IMG/VR virus record: IMGVR_UViG_3300033144_005510
Reading direction: 5' to 3' (one strand)
DNA length: 64,000 nucleotides
Source of the DNA: a virus
Lineage: Duplodnaviria > Heunggongvirae > Uroviricota > Caudoviricetes
The translations under genes were made by a program, and so were the position numbers. The notes below the pieces were generated by a model. The model ran no database searches, was not told the origin of the DNA, and saw nothing but the letters and a program-made list of their open reading frames with translations. This document shows, one piece after another, positions 25,558 through 63,758 of this stretch; position 1 is the first letter of the stretch; each line of letters starts with the position of its first letter.

Positions 25558-25629
25558 AAAAAATGACGGTTTTGTCTTCTCTTCCATCTTAGATAAGAAC
25601 CGTCTGAAACTTACTTTTTTTGATAGAAG
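25558..25629 (-). repeat. conserved structured leader element, copy A (more diverged)
   Basis: Shares AAAAATGACGGTTTTG ... CCATCT..AGAACCGTC ... ACT.AC ... GATAGAAG with copies B-E. On the minus strand it is box + hairpin + U-run, 37 nt upstream of the ssb start. Confidence 0.6.
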
Positions 25630-25640
25630 TAGTTTATCAT

Positions 25641-25668
25641 AATATACTCTAAAAACTGAATATGTCAA
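25641..25668 (-). promoter_or_regulatory. sigma-70-like promoter (TTGACA-16-TATATT) reading into element A and ssb
   Basis: Minus-strand TTGACA (plus 25663-25668) and TATATT (plus 25641-25646), 16-nt spacer. Confidence 0.4.
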
Positions 25669-27368
25669 GTCAATTGCCACATTTTTTTAACAATCAAACT
25701 ATCGCTATTTCTTGATCTATCTCCACTAACAAGAACAGTATTTTCCGCAACACAAATTCCTTTACTGCGAATTTCATCCCAGTCATTTGGAAATATTACG
25801 CAGTCCATAGAGCATTCGCCGTCACTAACAGTAACAAAAGCCATTTCCTGTTCATTGTTTCTAGTAATATGGGTTTTTATTTCGTCGATTTGACAAGCAA
25901 TAAAAATTCCGCTAGTTTTTTCCTTATGTTTCTGAAATTCTAAAATAGTGCAATTTGCTTGATCCGCATTTTTGCAACCATCTAGAATTGAAGCAGTAAT
26001 GGAAATTCCGAGTCTGGCTTCTTCTACCCTAGCAATCCAATCGGGAGCATCCCTTAAAGCATAAGGCGGATTTACAACTAAGCTTAAAATGTCTTTCATT
26101 TTCTGTATTCTGTTTTTATTAGCACACGGACCCTTTACTTTTTTATCAGGGTTATCATGTCGTTTTAATGATTCTTCCAATATTTGTTTTAGCGAACTGG
26201 CATTTTTTATATTCTGCTTAATCCACGCATGTTCTTTATTTGTTAATTTGGAATATTGTTCATAATCAAATAACATTTGCGTTCTTGCTGTTTTTAAATA
26301 GTCTAAAGCTCCTGCTTCAATCATACCAGCTACTACAGTGCTACCTACATCTTGCGAAAAATATACAAGAAAATCGGTCCATGACCAATCTTTGCGAGGG
26401 CGATTAATTGCTGTTTCTGCAAGATAAATTGCATTAGCAACTTTTACGACAGCGCTTTTCCCGATTCCTTTAATATTAGAAAGACCGAAATAAATTTTGT
26501 CATCATAAGGATTATATGTTGGTTGTCCTGGTACAGAATTCGAGATACGTTTAAAATGTTCATTGGCGTATCTAAAATCTGGGGGGTAGATATTAATACC
26601 CATGACTCTAGCATTAGCAACTAGTAATTTGATTTCATCAAACTTCTTCTGCTTATCTTTGGCATACCATAGATATGAAGTAAAGAATGATGCTGGAAAA
26701 TGTGCTTTTGCATAAGCAGATAAATAACCATTCATTGCATAAGATACTGAGTGGCTTTTATTAAAAGAATATCGTTGTGATTTTTCGATCTGATCCCACA
26801 GCTCTTGGGCTTCTTCTTTATTTAGAATTCCTTGTTTTTCACACCCTTCAAGAAACTCATTTTCAAGCTTGGCCATAATGTCGGCCTTTTTCTTACCAAT
26901 AGCTTTACGAAGTACATCAGCTTGTTGGAGATCAAAGCCAGCAATATCCTGGGCAATTCTCATTGCCTGCTCCTGGTAAATCATTTCACCAAAGGTTGGC
27001 GAAAGAATAGGTTCTAGAGCAGGATGTGAGATTGTAACTTCTTCTAGACCGTTTTTTCTATCCATGTAATGCTCGGCAATATTCTTACCGTCACGAATAG
27101 ATTGGATACATCCAGGTCTTAGGATTGCAGATAGAGCTGCAAGCTGCTCAATATTTTCTGGTTTGAGCTTTTTAGCGTATTGTTGGCCGAATCGTGTTTC
27201 TAGTTGGAATACGCCTTTGGTATTACCTTCACCAATTAAATCCCAAGTTCTTTGGCAATTAAGAGGAAGATCAAAATCCCACTTTAGCTTGACTGGCGGC
27301 CCTTCTTCCTCAACTTCAAATTTGCAGCCACACTCAAAATATGCATAACCATTCTTAATCTCGATCAT
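25665..27368 (-). CDS. dnaE: DNA polymerase III alpha subunit, C-terminal fragment (fingers / HhH region)
   Basis: KGVFQLETRFGQQYAKKLKPENIEQLAALSAILRPG matches the DnaE finger motif (GVFQLES...ALxRPGP). Confidence 0.8.
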   Translation of the reverse strand: MIEIKNGYAYFECGCKFEVEEEGPPVKLKWDFDLPLNCQRTWDLIGEGNTKGVFQLETRFGQQYAKKLKPENIEQLAALSAILRPGCIQSIRDGKNIAEHYMDRKNGLEEVTISHPALEPILSPTFGEMIYQEQAMRIAQDIAGFDLQQADVLRKAIGKKKADIMAKLENEFLEGCEKQGILNKEEAQELWDQIEKSQRYSFNKSHSVSYAMNGYLSAYAKAHFPASFFTSYLWYAKDKQKKFDEIKLLVANARVMGINIYPPDFRYANEHFKRISNSVPGQPTYNPYDDKIYFGLSNIKGIGKSAVVKVANAIYLAETAINRPRKDWSWTDFLVYFSQDVGSTVVAGMIEAGALDYLKTARTQMLFDYEQYSKLTNKEHAWIKQNIKNASSLKQILEESLKRHDNPDKKVKGPCANKNRIQKMKDILSLVVNPPYALRDAPDWIARVEEARLGISITASILDGCKNADQANCTILEFQKHKEKTSGIFIACQIDEIKTHITRNNEQEMAFVTVSDGECSMDCVIFPNDWDEIRSKGICVAENTVLVSGDRSRNSDSLIVKKMWQLT

Positions 27369-27442
27369 ATTACAAAAGTCCTACAACAAAAAATAACCAA
27401 ATAAAATAAAAGGTATACTTCTATTATACTCTATTTTTCAAA

Positions 27443-28159
27443 TTATGCCATAGCATTTTTGAATTTTACTTTAGAAGATGTTCGTCTATGCAATCTCAAG
27501 AATTTTTGGATTACCAGTGCTTCATCTCGAACATCGTTTAAAGCATCATGAGCGCCATGACCAGACATACCAAAGAATTTTCTCAATTCGTCCATACTGT
27601 ATGATTTAGGCTCTGGCAGATTTTCAAACCAGTAGAAAGCCATTTCCATAATATCAATACAATCTCTTGGATTAAAGATTTTTTGCTCTTCTTCTTTAGT
27701 AATATATCCGAACCGCTCGCAAAGCCGATCTGCAATCACGTTATCGAAGCGTCTAATATTAATGCCTGCTCGAATAGGTGCGGTAAATCGGCTTCTACGA
27801 GACTGGTTCTTATTATAAATTAAAAGGTAATTTGTGAAATCATCCCAGACTTGCTTTTGTTCAGGAGCATCCAACCATGTTTGGTAAATGCCTTGATCAG
27901 CTTTATCGCGATCTTCCTGAGTTAAGTCGTCATAATTCTCTGTGTAGTTCTTGGCGTGCCAACGAATGGTATCACAATGTTTTTCAAAATAATCTTTTTC
28001 ATCTATACCTTGAGGCCTCATCCAAGAACAAAATTCTGAATTGTCAACAATCTCTAAAGTAATTGGATTGATCATGCAAGCCGCAATTTGTACTGGCTCG
28101 CATTTTTTAGGATTACTTCCATCAGTTTCAAAATCGTATACACAAACAAAGTTCTTCAC
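27443..28159 (-). CDS. DEDDh 3'-5' exonuclease (DnaQ/epsilon-like). Likely GTG start at 28159, not the track's ATG at 28282.
   Basis: Exo I VCVYDFETDG and Exo III HGAHDALNDVRDEA. AAGGAA RBS 7 nt before GTG. The track's K-rich N-terminus comes from the antisense frame of a GAAGAAGCT repeat. Confidence 0.65.
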   Translation of the reverse strand: MKNFVCVYDFETDGSNPKKCEPVQIAACMINPITLEIVDNSEFCSWMRPQGIDEKDYFEKHCDTIRWHAKNYTENYDDLTQEDRDKADQGIYQTWLDAPEQKQVWDDFTNYLLIYNKNQSRRSRFTAPIRAGINIRRFDNVIADRLCERFGYITKEEEQKIFNPRDCIDIMEMAFYWFENLPEPKSYSMDELRKFFGMSGHGAHDALNDVRDEALVIQKFLRLHRRTSSKVKFKNAMA

Positions 28160-28178
28160 AATATATTCCTTATTAAAT

Positions 28179-62393: not shown

Positions 62394-62394
62394 T

Positions 62395-62847
62395 TTAGTA
62401 ACCTCTAATTACGTTTTGTTCGACAATAATTTTATTACCGCGAACTTTTTGTTTTTGTACTTCGACAACATTTCTACGTTGAACGTTAAGAACATTGCCG
62501 ACCTGATTTCTTTGAATTACATAACTTCTTTGAAGCTGTACTTGTGGTACTTCTACAATTCTAAGGGTTCTTTGAGGAACGGCGATAACATTTCTCTGGA
62601 TAATCTGTTGTCCGCCATAACCATAATGACCGTTATTAACAATAACTCTTTCGACAACCTTATTCTGTTGAACGACTTGCTGTTTGACAACTCGTTGAAC
62701 TTGGGGCCGAACTACGACTCTTTGTCGTTGAACAACTCTTCTACGTGAAAAAAGTCCGCCAGTTGCCTCAGCTTCTGAGGGCATAATCATGCAGGCGGCG
62801 ATTGCACCCACAACAAAAGCGGTAAAAATAGCGAGTTTGGTTTTCAT
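62395..62847 (-). CDS. secreted Q/V/R-repeat protein, 150 aa
   Basis: Signal peptide MKTKLAIFTAFVVGAIAACMIMPSEA, then degenerate V-x-Q-Q/R-V-V repeats. Repeat domain is paralogous to the N-terminal half of the next ORF. Confidence 0.4.
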   Translation of the reverse strand: MKTKLAIFTAFVVGAIAACMIMPSEAEATGGLFSRRRVVQRQRVVVRPQVQRVVKQQVVQQNKVVERVIVNNGHYGYGGQQIIQRNVIAVPQRTLRIVEVPQVQLQRSYVIQRNQVGNVLNVQRRNVVEVQKQKVRGNKIIVEQNVIRGY

Positions 62848-62886
62848 TTGATATTAACCTTGTAGTAAAAAATAATGTGTAAAAAT

Positions 62887-63642
62887 TTATTGAGCAACCG
62901 CTTCCTTATTTTCCTCAGTTTTTGCTACCATCCAAAGACGAATAGCTTCAACATCTTCATCGGCAAGGGCTGGACCGCCCAAAGGCATTAACTTTTTACC
63001 TCTTGCTTGAAGATTAATTCCAGCGACATGATCATAAGTAGAAACTCTGTCTGACAAAGGGAGGTCCGCCAACCATTTCTCCCCGTTTTCTTCTTCGCCT
63101 ACTAATTGCAAACCAGCCTTTTGAGAAGATTGACCATGACAAGAAGAACAATTCTCAGAGAAAATAGTAAAAACCTTTTGATTCAATTGGACTATTCCGT
63201 CTGTTTCTGTCGACTCAACCGTTGTTGTATCGTCCTGTGGCTCTTCTACTGGCTCTTCTTGGGTTGGTTGAGAATCATTACTTGCATTACTTGTAGAATT
63301 TTTTAATAAGCTTTCTTCTAGAAGTCTAATCAGTCTGTCCACTTGTTCTGATTGCTTTAAGATTATATCTTTGTCAGCATTAATCTCTTGGGCTTGCAAC
63401 TGATTAACTACATCATAATAACCATTCATACCTAGAAAATAATCAGCATCAAATTGAACTTGCTTTTGAATTACATCCACATTTTCAACAACGTTAAATT
63501 GTTGAACAACGTGATCTTGAATAATTTGTTGCTTAACTATTGGCTGACAGACGATTTTTCGTCCTTTAAAACCGCCAGCAAAAATAGGAGAACTACTGGC
63601 TGTCCAAATTGCCAGGAATATGCAGAAAATTTTCTTAATCAT
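62887..63642 (-). CDS. secreted protein with Q/V-repeat N-terminal half and C-terminal c-type cytochrome (PSCyt1-like) domain
   Basis: Signal peptide. Heme-binding CSSCHG followed by KAGLQL...KLMPLGGPAL...EDVEAIRLWM, resembling the Planctomycete cytochrome C PSCyt1 domain. Confidence 0.5.
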   Translation of the reverse strand: MIKKIFCIFLAIWTASSSPIFAGGFKGRKIVCQPIVKQQIIQDHVVQQFNVVENVDVIQKQVQFDADYFLGMNGYYDVVNQLQAQEINADKDIILKQSEQVDRLIRLLEESLLKNSTSNASNDSQPTQEEPVEEPQDDTTTVESTETDGIVQLNQKVFTIFSENCSSCHGQSSQKAGLQLVGEEENGEKWLADLPLSDRVSTYDHVAGINLQARGKKLMPLGGPALADEDVEAIRLWMVAKTEENKEAVAQ

Positions 63643-63720
63643 TGTAAAATCCTAAATAAGTGAGTGAAATCCATTTATTATTATACACCACTTATATAAG
63701 ATTTATTTACAAGAATAAAA

Positions 63721-63758
63721 GTTCCCGAGAACCGCAAAACTCACCTTTATTGGTGGAA
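63721..63758 (-). repeat. partial copy F of the conserved leader element (box only, hairpin and U-run absent)
   Basis: Minus: CTTCCACCAATAAAGGTGAGTTTTGCGGTTCTCGGGAAC, followed by a GGTGTATAAT motif at plus 63681-63690. Confidence 0.45.

What the first reader, a model, noticed from the sequence alone, without database searches (positions are those of the whole stretch)
25558..63758. Family of ~70-nt conserved structured leader elements (5 full + 1 partial copy), each placed just upstream of a minus-strand gene
Copy positions: 25558-25629, 40851-40921, 54642-54714, 55307-55378, 60087-60157 and partial 63721-63758.

Conserved features (read on the minus strand):
- A conserved box CTTCCATTAACAAAGGTGAGTTTG.
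- The box 5' end (CTTCCAT) can pair with an internal ATGGA(A/G)G. This pair covaries in copy B to TCCGCA/TGCGGA, supporting a real RNA stem.
- An invariant GACGGTTCT ... CAAAACCGTC stem.
- 6-7 U residues.
- Only a ~9-nt segment inside the loop is hypervariable.

Context:
- Every copy lies 20-80 nt upstream of a start codon. These genes are ssb, the FmdB-like gene, the sigma-like gene, the CAP gene, the TnpB-like gene and the cytochrome-domain gene.
- For copies A and C, and via the tRNA promoter for copy E, a sigma-70-like promoter lies immediately upstream. The element would therefore be transcribed as a 5' leader ending in an intrinsic-terminator-like hairpin.

This resembles an attenuator / antitermination module: a promoter-proximal terminator giving a short RNA unless read through, in the manner of lambda qut/tR' or nut. 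Because the box stem and terminator stem interleave, they are mutually exclusive or form a pseudoknot. Alternatives: an RNA processing site, a phage sRNA family, or a phage-specific promoter.
Basis: seen in the sequence. Interest (0 to 1): 0.75.

Follow-up and report, generated by a model that had tools for sequence, protein, structure and literature searches.

The report
Phage TnpB-linked pseudoknot RNA modules
The repeats are real copies of a ~65-nt pseudoknotted RNA module, each capped here by a terminator; in related uncultured marine phages the module always brackets a TnpB-like gene and forms tandem arrays with tRNA genes, so it is more likely that protein's RNA partner reused as transcript punctuation than a simple attenuator.

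Summary
The window has five full copies, one 5' remnant (F) and one further remnant at the tnpB 3' end, all on the minus strand and far beyond chance. None matches an Rfam family.

With 34-47 copies from related marine phage contigs, both interleaved helices covary strongly, including the helix the search model did not encode. The element is therefore an H-type pseudoknot, not two alternative folds:
- S1, 8 bp
- L1, conserved (C)AACAAAGnYRAGUU
- S2, 5-7 bp
- L2, 9 nt
- a 6-nt free spacer followed by an invariant CAAA

The U-tract is optional. Solo or terminal copies carry it, as all five window copies do. Copies inside head-to-tail arrays, or abutting tRNAs, lack it.

In 10 lineages of a TnpB-like gene (32-100% identity; RuvC-III Asp replaced by Gln/His across the clade), modules sit on both sides of the gene. 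One usually overlaps the ORF tail, where an omegaRNA lies. Modules also mark mosaic breakpoints and one strain-level 83-bp indel (copy D).

Best reading (about 0.45): an omegaRNA-scaffold-type RNA of a phage TnpB-like cassette. The dispersed window copies act as leaky intrinsic terminators and small-RNA genes. The attenuator reading is only partly supported. No function has been tested.

The parts
25558..25632 (-). Copy A. Pseudoknot core 25565-25629, then A+U6. It lies upstream of ssb (start codon at 25519).
   Evidence: R1 95.7 bits. Helices listed: S1 CTTCTATC/GATGGAAG, S2 GACGGTT/AACCGTC.
25641..25668 (-). Sigma-70-type promoter, TTGACA-16-TATATT. Its -10 box ends 11 nt before S1 of copy A, so transcription should start about 4 nt before the module.
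   Evidence: This is a consensus match only.
40851..40924 (-). Copy B. Core 40857-40921. S1 has covaried to TCCGCA/TGCGGA and S2 is GGCGGTT/AACCGTC. It lies upstream of the Zn-ribbon gene, and an HNH endonuclease gene lies upstream of it.
   Evidence: R1 91 bits.
54642..54717 (-). Copy C. Core 54650-54714. It lies between the CAP gene and the sigma-like gene.
   Evidence: R1 94 bits. L053 has the same upstream flank but a different module variant and a different downstream gene.
55300..55382 (-). Copy D. Core 55314-55378. It equals an 83-bp strain-level indel bounded by CTAG (55383-55386 and 55300-55303). It begins at the stop codon of the GT4 gene.
   Evidence: R1 96.9 bits. It is absent from the near-identical contig L011 and present in L058.
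60087..60160 (-). Copy E. Core 60096-60157. It starts 5 nt after tRNA-Arg and ends 18 nt before the tnpB-like start codon.
   Evidence: R1 90.9 bits. Orthologous copies occur in L001/L068 and L010.
60162..60397 (-). tRNA-Ile(tat), tRNA-Asp and tRNA-Arg(tct) cluster, co-directional with and directly upstream of copy E.
60494..60521 (-). Sigma-70-type promoter (TTGACA-16-TATACT) of the tRNA / copy E / tnpB unit.
   Evidence: This is a consensus match only.
58815..60068 (-). tnpB-like gene (417 aa). The RuvC-I Asp is kept, and Gln stands at the RuvC-III Asp position.
58849..58870 (-). Remnant of the module that overlaps the tnpB ORF tail in relatives (ACTGTTGGCGACAAAGCTGA). It is truncated, and homology to L068 and L010 ends here.
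   Evidence: (12.8 bits, E 1.8, not significant alone).
63712..63759 (-). Partial copy F. S1-5', L1 and S2-5' are present (63727-63759). The rest is replaced by a short GTTC/GAAC hairpin plus a T-run. It lies upstream of the cytochrome-c-like gene.
   Evidence: 16.3 bits; 20.3 bits. L010 5726-5758 is truncated at the same point.

Best explanation
What it is
The element is a compact H-type pseudoknot RNA module, laid out as:
- S1, 8 bp
- a conserved 15-17-nt L1
- S2, 5-7 bp
- a 9-nt L2
- a 6-nt spacer followed by CAAA

It belongs to a family specific to a clade of uncultured marine phages. There it is the RNA companion of a TnpB-like cassette, with modules on both sides of the gene. The module directly after the conserved C-terminus of the protein, usually overlapping the ORF tail, occupies the position of a TnpB omegaRNA/reRNA scaffold.

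How it probably works
The family has multiplied. It forms head-to-tail arrays co-transcribed with tRNAs. It also occurs as dispersed solo copies in which S2 is followed by a U-tract.

The five window copies are such solo copies. Each is transcribed from a promoter abutting it (A), from the tRNA operon (E), or by read-through from the upstream gene (B, C, D). Each folds into the pseudoknot. Its S2 plus U6-7 then terminates part of the transcription. This releases a small RNA of about 75 nt or an mRNA 3' end, and some polymerases read on into the next gene.

Modules are also the points where cassettes are exchanged or lost.

Shown and inferred
- Shown: the fold, the family, the genomic association, the distribution of the U-tract and the mosaic breakpoints.
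- Inferred: termination, production of a discrete RNA, binding by the TnpB-like protein, and any guide function.
For: Structure
- On 34 copies, S1 has double-sided changes in 7 of 7 pairs and is 96.6% paired.
- S2, which the search model did not encode as pairs, has double-sided changes in 5 of 7 pairs and is 95.7% paired.
- None of 500 shuffles reaches the observed values. Slid controls are 41-56% paired.
- The 8th S1 pair also covaries.
- The geometry is nearly fixed in 47 copies: CAAA in 47/47, a 6-nt spacer in 42/47, a 9-nt L2 in 36/47.
- A descriptor scan finds 48 copies on the sense strand (one judged false) against 2 on the antisense strand in 168 kb.

Link to tnpB
- Modules flank the gene in ten lineages: the window, L068, L010, L063, L073, L074, L078, L088, L092/L096 and L100. 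Protein identity ranges from 32 to 100%.
- These lineages occupy at least four different genomic neighbourhoods.
- The copy over the ORF tail keeps both helices through compensatory changes despite being coding. Examples: L010 CTGTTA/TAACAG and GATGTTT/AAACATC; L074 CTCAAC/GTTGAG and ATACCT/AGGTAT.
- In ISDra2 the omegaRNA scaffold likewise overlaps the non-conserved C-terminal tail and contains a pseudoknot next to the guide (PMC10097598).

Terminator role
- A U-tract is present on 18 of 47 copies. These are mainly solo copies or the last copy before a protein gene, tRNA or promoter. It is absent from copies that abut another module.

Stand-alone RNA
- 3 of 47 copies have a promoter scoring at least 11/12 that ends 7-11 nt before S1. 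The background rate is 0.6%.

Mobility and mosaicism
- Copy D is an indel.
- L053 differs from C from the module onward.
- L088 and L100 have flanks 87-94% identical, but the tnpB cassette between two conserved modules is replaced.
Against: - No guide could be identified. Solo copies run straight from S2 into the U-tract, and array copies abut the next module. The defining omegaRNA feature, a variable 3' guide matching a TAM-flanked target, is therefore missing or unrecognised.
- The module (about 60 nt, three helices) is much smaller than known scaffolds and is organised differently from them. ISDra2 has 116 nt with four stems plus a pseudoknot, and the TldR scaffold is 97 nt.
- The clade's protein lacks the RuvC-III Asp, so canonical homing by DNA cleavage is doubtful.
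- Other genes (GT4, L047) also end directly at a module, so adjacency to an ORF end is not unique to tnpB.
- S2 closes a loop of about 30 nt. The simple terminator scan did not call these sites, so termination efficiency is unknown.
- No expression data exist for this uncultured phage group.
Confidence: 0.45

Rival explanations
1. Attenuator or antitermination leader. A promoter-proximal conditional terminator whose read-through is controlled by a phage factor acting on the box. The factor could be the sigma-like protein, the TnpB-like protein or another RNA binder.
For: - All five window copies carry a U6-7 tract 20-60 nt before an RBS.
- In copy C there is no room for a promoter between the U-tract and the RBS.
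- Copy A, L063-1 and L074 lie directly after strong promoters.
- tnpB itself is always preceded by a U-tract-bearing copy.
Against: - The two helices share no nucleotides, and both are conserved in copies without any U-tract. No switch architecture is therefore evident.
- The family also occurs in arrays, between tRNAs and at ORF 3' ends.
- No nut, qut or put similarity was found.
- The downstream genes have no functional coherence.
Confidence: 0.15
2. Self-cleaving or nuclease-recognised RNA processing module. It would cut at its own 5' edge and so separate tRNAs, module RNAs and mRNAs from polycistronic transcripts. This is analogous to the HDV-like theta ribozymes placed after phage tRNAs.
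For: - The order of helices matches minimal HDV-like ribozymes: P1-J1/2-P2-P3-P1'-linker-J4/2-P2'.
- There is an invariant C in CAAA at the J4/2 position.
- The first two S1 pairs are conserved.
- Modules start 2-5 nt after tRNA 3' ends and abut each other at 0-4 nt.
- Arrays of small ribozymes in phage regions have precedent (PMC10879173).
Against: - Position +1 is a C-G pair (42/47), not the G.U wobble.
- L2 is only 9 nt, too short for a 3-bp P3 plus an L3 able to form P1.1, and no P1.1 complementarity exists.
- J1/2 is long and conserved, unlike theta ribozymes (PMC10879173).
- Promoter-driven copies would start at the supposed cleavage site.
- No Rfam ribozyme matches.
Confidence: 0.15
3. 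PeSL-like intergenic regulatory repeat: a structured terminator that spreads and shuffles gene cassettes by homologous recombination. It would have no functional tie to TnpB, which is simply one of the shuffled selfish cassettes.
For: - Modules bracket single accessory genes (D-CAP-C, and tnpB).
- They coincide with replacement and indel boundaries.
- More distant relatives lack both the CAP gene and the modules at that site.
- PeSLs do the same in T4-type phages (PMC2839356, PMC4122927).
Against: - This does not explain the pseudoknot with its fixed geometry and conserved L1.
- It does not explain the terminator-less arrays.
- It does not explain why every tnpB lineage down to 32% identity keeps modules on both sides, in different neighbourhoods.
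- Where a promoter is present it precedes the module rather than following the stem-loop.
Confidence: 0.15
4. DNA-level transposon ends: an IS200/IS605-type PATE or MITE. The modules would be LE/RE-like single-strand DNA structures mobilised by a Y1 TnpA supplied in trans. They would insert 3' of a short target that resembles their own 3' end, which would give tandem arrays and the copy D insertion.
For: - The arrangement is unit-tnpB-unit.
- There is a precise 83-bp indel with CTAG at the left flank and at the right end.
- Copies occur in head-to-tail arrays.
- The structure is strand-specific.
Against: - No TnpA (PF01797) appears among the genes called in any fetched locus.
- Two interleaved 7-8-bp helices are not what IS200/IS605 ends look like.
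- No common flanking tetranucleotide is seen at the other copies.
- The pattern scan found no convincing copy in bacterial genomes.
- Module orientation always follows transcription.
Confidence: 0.07

Closest known systems
TnpB omegaRNA/reRNA and TldR guide RNA scaffolds (ISDra2, PMC10097598; oppF-TldR, PMC13622181)
   Same: - It is encoded in sense, directly at or over the non-conserved 3' tail of a tnpB-family ORF.
- It contains a pseudoknot whose 3' strand ends the scaffold.
- It has an A-rich strand (CAAA) next to the pseudoknot that could form a triplex.
- It is conserved by structure across protein lineages.
   Different: - It is about 60 nt with three helices, against 97-116 nt with several stems.
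- No recognisable guide follows it.
- The same module also lies upstream of the gene, in tandem arrays with tRNAs, and as terminator-capped solo copies tens of kb away.
PeSL composite promoter/terminator cassettes of T4-type phages (PMC2839356, PMC4122927)
   Same: - It is a short conserved intergenic repeat containing a terminator-like stem-loop.
- It brackets accessory genes.
- It sits at indel and replacement junctions between related phages.
   Different: - It is a pseudoknot with a conserved single-stranded loop.
- Many copies have neither promoter nor U-tract.
- Where a promoter exists it precedes the structure.
- It is tied to a tnpB-like gene.
Minimal HDV-like / theta ribozymes next to phage tRNAs (PMC10879173)
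   Same: - It has the nested order of helices.
- An invariant C heads the last junction.
- It is placed a few nucleotides after tRNA 3' ends.
- It is found in phages.
   Different: - It has a C-G pair instead of a G.U pair at the first position.
- It has no P1.1.
- Its L2 is 9 nt.
- Its J1/2 is long and conserved.
- It is marine rather than from the gut.
- Self-cleavage has not been tested.
Promoter-proximal terminators and antitermination sites (lambda PR'-qut-tR' 6S RNA, nut; HK022 put)
   Same: Copy A, and L063-1 and L074 in relatives, have a promoter followed at once by a structured RNA ending in a U-tract, ahead of a gene.
   Different: - There is no sequence or structural likeness to these sites.
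- The structure occurs without terminators.
- No N/Q homologue was identified.
IS200/IS605 PATEs and REP-like miniature elements
   Same: - It is small and structured.
- It is multi-copy and strand-specific.
- It is associated with tnpB.
- It shows presence/absence polymorphism.
   Different: - It is a pseudoknot rather than a subterminal hairpin.
- No TnpA was seen.
- It is confined to phage contigs.
- Its orientation is locked to transcription.

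Membership tests
TnpB omegaRNA / reRNA | [quoted passage not shown] | tested here: met
   A module starts right after the conserved ..KLVxEY C-terminus in L068, L010, L073, L074, L088, L092 and L096, overlapping the ORF tail. In L063, L078 and L100 it lies 1-20 nt after the stop codon. In the window only a truncated remnant is left, at 58849-58870. The five solo copies named in the finding are not at this position.
TnpB omegaRNA / reRNA | Conserved structured scaffold with a pseudoknot ending next to the guide | tested here: met
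   Both pseudoknot helices are supported by covariation. The size and number of stems differ from ISDra2 (PMC10097598).
TnpB omegaRNA / reRNA | Variable 3' guide (about 9-20 nt) matching a TAM-flanked target | tested here: not met
   S2-3' is followed by A+U6-7 in solo copies and by the next module or a tRNA in arrays. The L068 candidate guide mismatches other copies at its first 4 nt (sequences). The search covered only the fetched loci.
TnpB omegaRNA / reRNA | Bound by the cognate TnpB-family protein | not testable with these tools
   Needs RIP, EMSA or a co-structure.
HDV-like / theta self-cleaving ribozyme | Nested double-pseudoknot order P1-P2-P3-P1'-(P4)-J4/2-P2' with C as the first base of J4/2 | tested here: met
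   The helix order matches, and CAAA is present in 47/47 copies.
HDV-like / theta self-cleaving ribozyme | G1.U wobble at the cleavage site, P1.1 between L3 and J1/4, short J1/2 | tested here: not met
   The first pair is C-G in 42/47 copies. L2 is 9 nt. There is no L3/J1/4 complementarity. J1/2 is 15-17 nt and conserved (PMC10879173).
HDV-like / theta self-cleaving ribozyme | Self-scission in Mg2+ | not testable with these tools
   Needs an in vitro transcription assay.
Intrinsic (factor-independent) terminator | G+C-rich stem immediately followed by a U-tract, on the transcribed strand and downstream of a gene or promoter | tested here: met
   Copies A-E have GACGGTT/AACCGTC followed by A and U6-7.
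Intrinsic (factor-independent) terminator | Simple hairpin with a short loop | tested here: not met
   S2 encloses about 30 nt, including S1-3'. The scan limited to loops of 3-8 nt did not call these sites.
PeSL regulatory cassette | Conserved intergenic repeat found at indel or replacement boundaries between related phages | tested here: met
   Copy D indel, L053 against C, L088 against L100, and window against L068 and L010.
PeSL regulatory cassette | Stem-loop terminator followed by an early promoter | tested here: not met
   Promoters, when present, precede the module. Copy C has only about 20 nt between its U-tract and the RBS.
lambda-type nut/qut or HK022 put antitermination site | boxA/boxB or paired put stem-loops, with a cognate N/Q factor or RNAP modification | not tested
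   No motif comparison was run. By inspection the module has no boxA (CGCUCUUA) and no two-hairpin put layout. No N/Q homologue was sought.
IS200/IS605 PATE | LE/RE subterminal hairpins, a Y1 TnpA available, and insertion 3' of a fixed tetranucleotide without target duplication | tested here: inconclusive
   Copy D is bounded by CTAG on both sides. No TnpA domain appears in any fetched locus, and the other copies share no flank motif. The window's own ORFs were not all scanned.
TldR-like nuclease-dead TnpB (the protein, not the RNA) | TnpB fold with a disrupted RuvC D-E-D triad, conserved outside a transposon | tested here: inconclusive
   The RuvC-III Asp (AsCas12f D401 in the alignment; the residue number is from memory) is Q or H in all 23 aligned members. 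It is Q or H in 68 of 68 close homologues where the motif was found. The RuvC-I Asp is kept. An invariant Asp stands near the RuvC-II position. Activity was not tested. The gene is syntenic in L088 and L100 at 37% identity.

The most novel reading that the evidence does not exclude
A whole clade of uncultured marine phages has domesticated a RuvC-altered TnpB-like protein together with a guide-less pseudoknot RNA module.

In this reading the protein recognises the module wherever it occurs: in tRNA arrays, at mRNA ends, and directly after promoters. The pair would form a phage-encoded RNP system for transcript punctuation, processing or silencing. This would be a use of the TnpB/Cas12 lineage distinct from homing, CRISPR immunity and the known TldR repressors.

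The arrays of scaffold-only repeats could also represent an intermediate between an omegaRNA and a repeat array.
Probability: 0.2. Interest if true: 0.9.

Novelty: new variant of a known kind. Interest (0 to 1): 0.72.

Why it matters
If the module is the RNA partner of this TnpB-like clade, it shows an omegaRNA-type scaffold that has multiplied. It forms tandem arrays interleaved with tRNAs, and it has been reused across a lytic phage genome as a terminator or small-RNA gene.

Neither behaviour is described for omegaRNAs. The three characterised TldR clades (fliC, csrA, oppF; PMC13622181) do not include this one.

The finding yields several testable objects:
- a compact pseudoknot of about 60 nt with fixed geometry and about 20 conserved nucleotides
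- a large protein clade with Gln/His at the RuvC-III position
- natural cassette-exchange junctions

Even under the most ordinary reading it is a new, well-supported RNA family for marine phages. In that reading it would be a structured terminator that also serves as a recombination point, the counterpart of PeSLs. It is a candidate for Rfam.

Tried and rejected
- Rfam. The gathering search of the window and the E-value search of three related loci returned only tRNAs.
- Deposited phages. Megablast of 24 kb matched only a tRNA. tblastn with the TnpB-like protein found no match, and Pol III alpha reached at most 30% identity. There is no cultured relative and no transcriptome to consult.
- Bacterial genomes. 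The pattern scan gave 22 loci, none convincing under the CM. The best, at 29.8 bits, lacks the S1 pairing. Only one window-type pattern was scanned, so absence from hosts is not proven.
- Phage or Bacteroidetes-type promoter in the box. Rejected: the downstream genes have Shine-Dalgarno sites and the phage uses TTGACA/TATAAT promoters. The box is inside the covarying RNA.
- Alternative folds (a switch). MFE predictions flip between the two helices, but covariation supports both helices in all copies.
- CRISPR-like array or guide in the variable segment. Rejected: the segment is 6 nt, is not conserved between orthologous copies (E against L010 and L068), and units abut without spacers.
- L1 as an anti-SD or sRNA seed. 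The GGUGA-like core is not conserved across the family.
- HDV-like membership. Rejected on three defining features (see the membership test).
- Riboswitch. The tandem arrays and the unrelated downstream genes argue against it.
- Guide targeting other copies. The candidate L068 guide mismatches other copies at its TAM-proximal end.

Full report
**1. The observation**

The repeat finder groups the same sites.
- The pattern CGGTTCT-N18-34-AACCGTC occurs five times in the window. It occurs zero times in 100 dinucleotide-preserving shuffles.
- A covariance model built from the five full copies and two relatives scores the five at 91-97 bits and the partial copy F at 16 bits.
- A broader model finds the same set. 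[quoted passage not shown]
- All copies are on the minus strand, co-directional with the roughly 48-kb array of replication and nucleotide-metabolism genes.
- Rfam has nothing at these sites.
- The neighbouring genes are as named: SSB, CAP and TnpB firmly; Zn-ribbon, sigma region 4 and cytochrome c weakly.

**2. Relatives**

No deposited phage is close. The window's TnpB-like protein is in NCBI under a 'Ca. Bathyarchaeota' MAG label, which is almost certainly a mis-binned phage contig.

Pattern scans of IMG/VR and of metagenomes recovered the same phage, strain variants and moderately related contigs. A scan of one genome per bacterial species gave only chance-level matches.

Homologues of the TnpB-like protein (32-76% identity) all lie on marine phage contigs, mostly from Tara Oceans. 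These contigs carry rIIB, CAP, RecA-like and DnaB genes.

**3. Anatomy**

On 34 copies aligned to a model that encodes only S1 and the mini-hairpin, the results were as follows:
- S1 has compensatory changes at all seven pairs and is 96.6% paired.
- S2, which was not encoded as pairs, has compensatory changes at five of seven pairs and is 95.7% paired.
- None of 500 shuffles reaches the observed values.
- Sliding the partner columns drops pairing to 41-56%.

A descriptor scan that requires both helices finds 48 units on the sense strand (one judged false) and 2 on the antisense strand in 168 kb.

The geometry is nearly fixed:
- S1 is 8 bp. Its first pair is C-G in 42/47 copies and its second is U-A in 39/47. 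The 8th pair covaries.
- L1 is 15-17 nt, reading (C)AACAAAGnYRAGUU.
- S2 is 5-7 bp.
- L2 is 9 nt (CUYnnnnRA) in 36/47 copies.
- The spacer is free in sequence but exactly 6 nt long in 42/47 copies.
- CAAA is invariant in 47/47 copies and is followed directly by S2-3'.

The two helices interleave, share no nucleotide and are both kept everywhere. The structure is therefore an H-type pseudoknot, not a pair of alternative folds. The flipping MFE predictions are an artefact of nested-only folding. G.U pairs occur only in the minus-strand reading, which fits an RNA in the sense of the genes.

**4. The U-tract is optional**

Of 47 units, 18 are followed by a U-tract. These are the solo copies and the last unit before a protein gene, a promoter or, once, a tRNA. 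The other 29 abut the next unit (0-7 nt) or a tRNA.

Arrays of three to five abutting units occur in four places:
- upstream of tnpB in L073, interleaved with tRNA-Ile
- downstream of tnpB in L074, where the assembly breaks into Ns
- on both sides of tnpB in L088
- on both sides of tnpB in L096

S2 is therefore first a structural helix. In terminal copies, including all five in the window, it doubles as the stem of an intrinsic-terminator-like signal.

Three units have a promoter scoring at least 11/12 that ends 7-11 nt before S1. These are window copy A, L063-1 and L074. The background rate is 0.6%. A fourth unit (L088, at 5667) follows an extended -10 box. In these cases the transcript would begin at the module's own 5' edge. 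This suggests that a discrete RNA with that 5' end is the functional product.

**5. Link to the tnpB-like gene**

Every tnpB lineage examined has at least one unit upstream, and the last of these carries a U-tract before the RBS. Each also has a unit starting at, or within about 20 nt of, the end of the conserved C-terminus. In most lineages this unit overlaps the non-conserved ORF tail.

These tail-overlapping copies keep both helices through multiple compensatory changes although they are coding.

The arrangement recurs in at least four different genomic neighbourhoods:
- after rIIB and CAP
- between the recA-like gene and dnaB
- beside sugar-nucleotide genes
- elsewhere

The block unit-tnpB-unit therefore travels together.

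The position is that of an omegaRNA. In ISDra2 the 116-nt scaffold also overlaps the poorly conserved C-terminal tail and ends in a pseudoknot next to the guide (PMC10097598). [quoted passage not shown]

In the window the tail copy is truncated after 20 nt. Homology with L068 and L010 stops there.

**6. The protein**

The RuvC-I Asp is kept, and an invariant Asp stands near the RuvC-II position.

The RuvC-III Asp aligns with the Asp of ANADYNAARNIA in AsCas12f. It is Gln or His in all 23 aligned members. It is also Gln or His in 68 of 68 close homologues in which the motif could be read. Canonical Asp reappears only among distant profile hits.

The clade therefore has a non-canonical triad. 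Whether it is inactive was not tested. L088 and L100 carry the gene at the same locus although the proteins are only 37% identical.

**7. Mosaicism and mobility**

- A near-identical contig (L011) lacks copy D exactly. The difference is an 83-bp indel bounded by CTAG at the left flank and at the right end. Another sample has both C and D.
- L053 shares C's upstream flank to the base. From the module onward it has another module variant, with S1 compensated to CTTCTAT/ATAGAAG, and another gene.
- L088 and L100 are 87-94% identical up to the end of one module and again from the start of another. Everything between, which is the tnpB cassette, is unrelated at the DNA level.
- More distant relatives have neither the CAP gene nor modules at the sigma-like gene.

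Modules are therefore exchange points, like PeSLs in T4-type phages (PMC2839356, PMC4122927). It cannot be decided whether the copy D polymorphism is an insertion or a slippage deletion of a structured segment.

**8. Interpretation**

The best-supported reading is a pseudoknot RNA module that belongs to a phage TnpB-like cassette as its omegaRNA-type scaffold, and that has multiplied. The window's solo copies act as leaky terminators and small-RNA genes, and as recombination points.

The weakest step is the functional tie to the protein. No guide follows any copy, and the module is smaller than known scaffolds. The rivals are:
- a regulated attenuator
- a processing or self-cleaving module
- a PeSL-like terminator with no TnpB function
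- IS200/IS605-type DNA ends

The helix order matches minimal HDV-like and theta ribozymes, and an invariant C stands at the J4/2 position. However, the G.U first pair, P1.1 and the short J1/2 are all absent (PMC10879173). Membership in that family is therefore rejected, while a processing role is not excluded.

**9. Limits**

- All functional statements are inferences from sequence. No expression, binding or cleavage data exist.
- Alignments fitted to the model favour S1, whereas the S2 counts are independent of the model.
- Only parts of the related genomes were available, so co-occurrence of modules and tnpB genome-wide is untested.
- The window's ORFs were not all scanned for a TnpA.

Noticed in passing
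window 45914-46186 (-): A sigma-70-type promoter (TTTACA-17-TATAAT, 46186-46158) is followed about 210 nt later by a strong 14-bp terminator (45945-45914). Both lie just before the gene starting at 45884. This could be a separate small RNA or a regulated leader.
   Followed up: no
window 58815-60068 (-), and homologues P0005-P0216: The TnpB-like protein has Gln at the RuvC-III catalytic Asp position. The whole clade has Gln or His there: 68 of 68 close homologues with a readable motif. Distant relatives have the canonical Asp.
   Followed up: partly
window 58435-58460 and 58815-58840 (-): The tnpB-like ORF ends ..EEMAIDFE*. The next ORF, an SSB-like OB-fold protein, ends ..PEMSIDFE*. The shared tail, and the loss of the 3' module, suggest a recombination junction here.
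   Followed up: partly
window 25665-27368 (-): The DNA polymerase III alpha homologue is only the C-terminal part (finger, HHH and OB domains; 567 aa). The gene appears to be split from its N-terminal part.
   Followed up: no
window ~40826-40835 and ~63650-63660 (-): The motif GGTGTATAAT stands 3-5 nt before the ATG of both the Zn-ribbon gene and the cytochrome-c-like gene, downstream of copies B and F. It could be an extended -10 box giving a near-leaderless mRNA, or an SD-like GGTG.
   Followed up: no
window 63727-63759 (-) and L010 5726-5758: Two independent partial modules are truncated at the same point, right after S2-5' plus CUY. Each is then followed by unrelated sequence leading to an RBS.
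   Followed up: no
L088 5620-7437 versus L100 3971-5318: Between two conserved modules, one phage has a promoter, three extra modules, a tnpB allele and three more modules. The other phage has only a tnpB allele that is 37% identical. The flanks are 87-94% identical at the DNA level.
   Followed up: yes
window 41096-41662 (-): An HNH endonuclease gene lies directly upstream of copy B. A 66-aa ORF (40903-41103) reads into the module.
   Followed up: no
window 61901-62032 and 50341-50372 (-): Conventional strong terminators (13-14-bp stems plus a T-run) and a 12/12 promoter also punctuate the same gene array. The modules are therefore not the phage's only terminators.
   Followed up: no
L073 12044-12427: ARAGORN calls a permuted tmRNA that overlaps a module at 12136-12211. 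This is probably a false call.
   Followed up: no
window TnpB-like protein (NCBI DRO61_03755): The identical protein is deposited as a hypothetical protein of a 'Candidatus Bathyarchaeota' MAG. The contig is clearly phage, so the MAG bin is contaminated.
   Followed up: no
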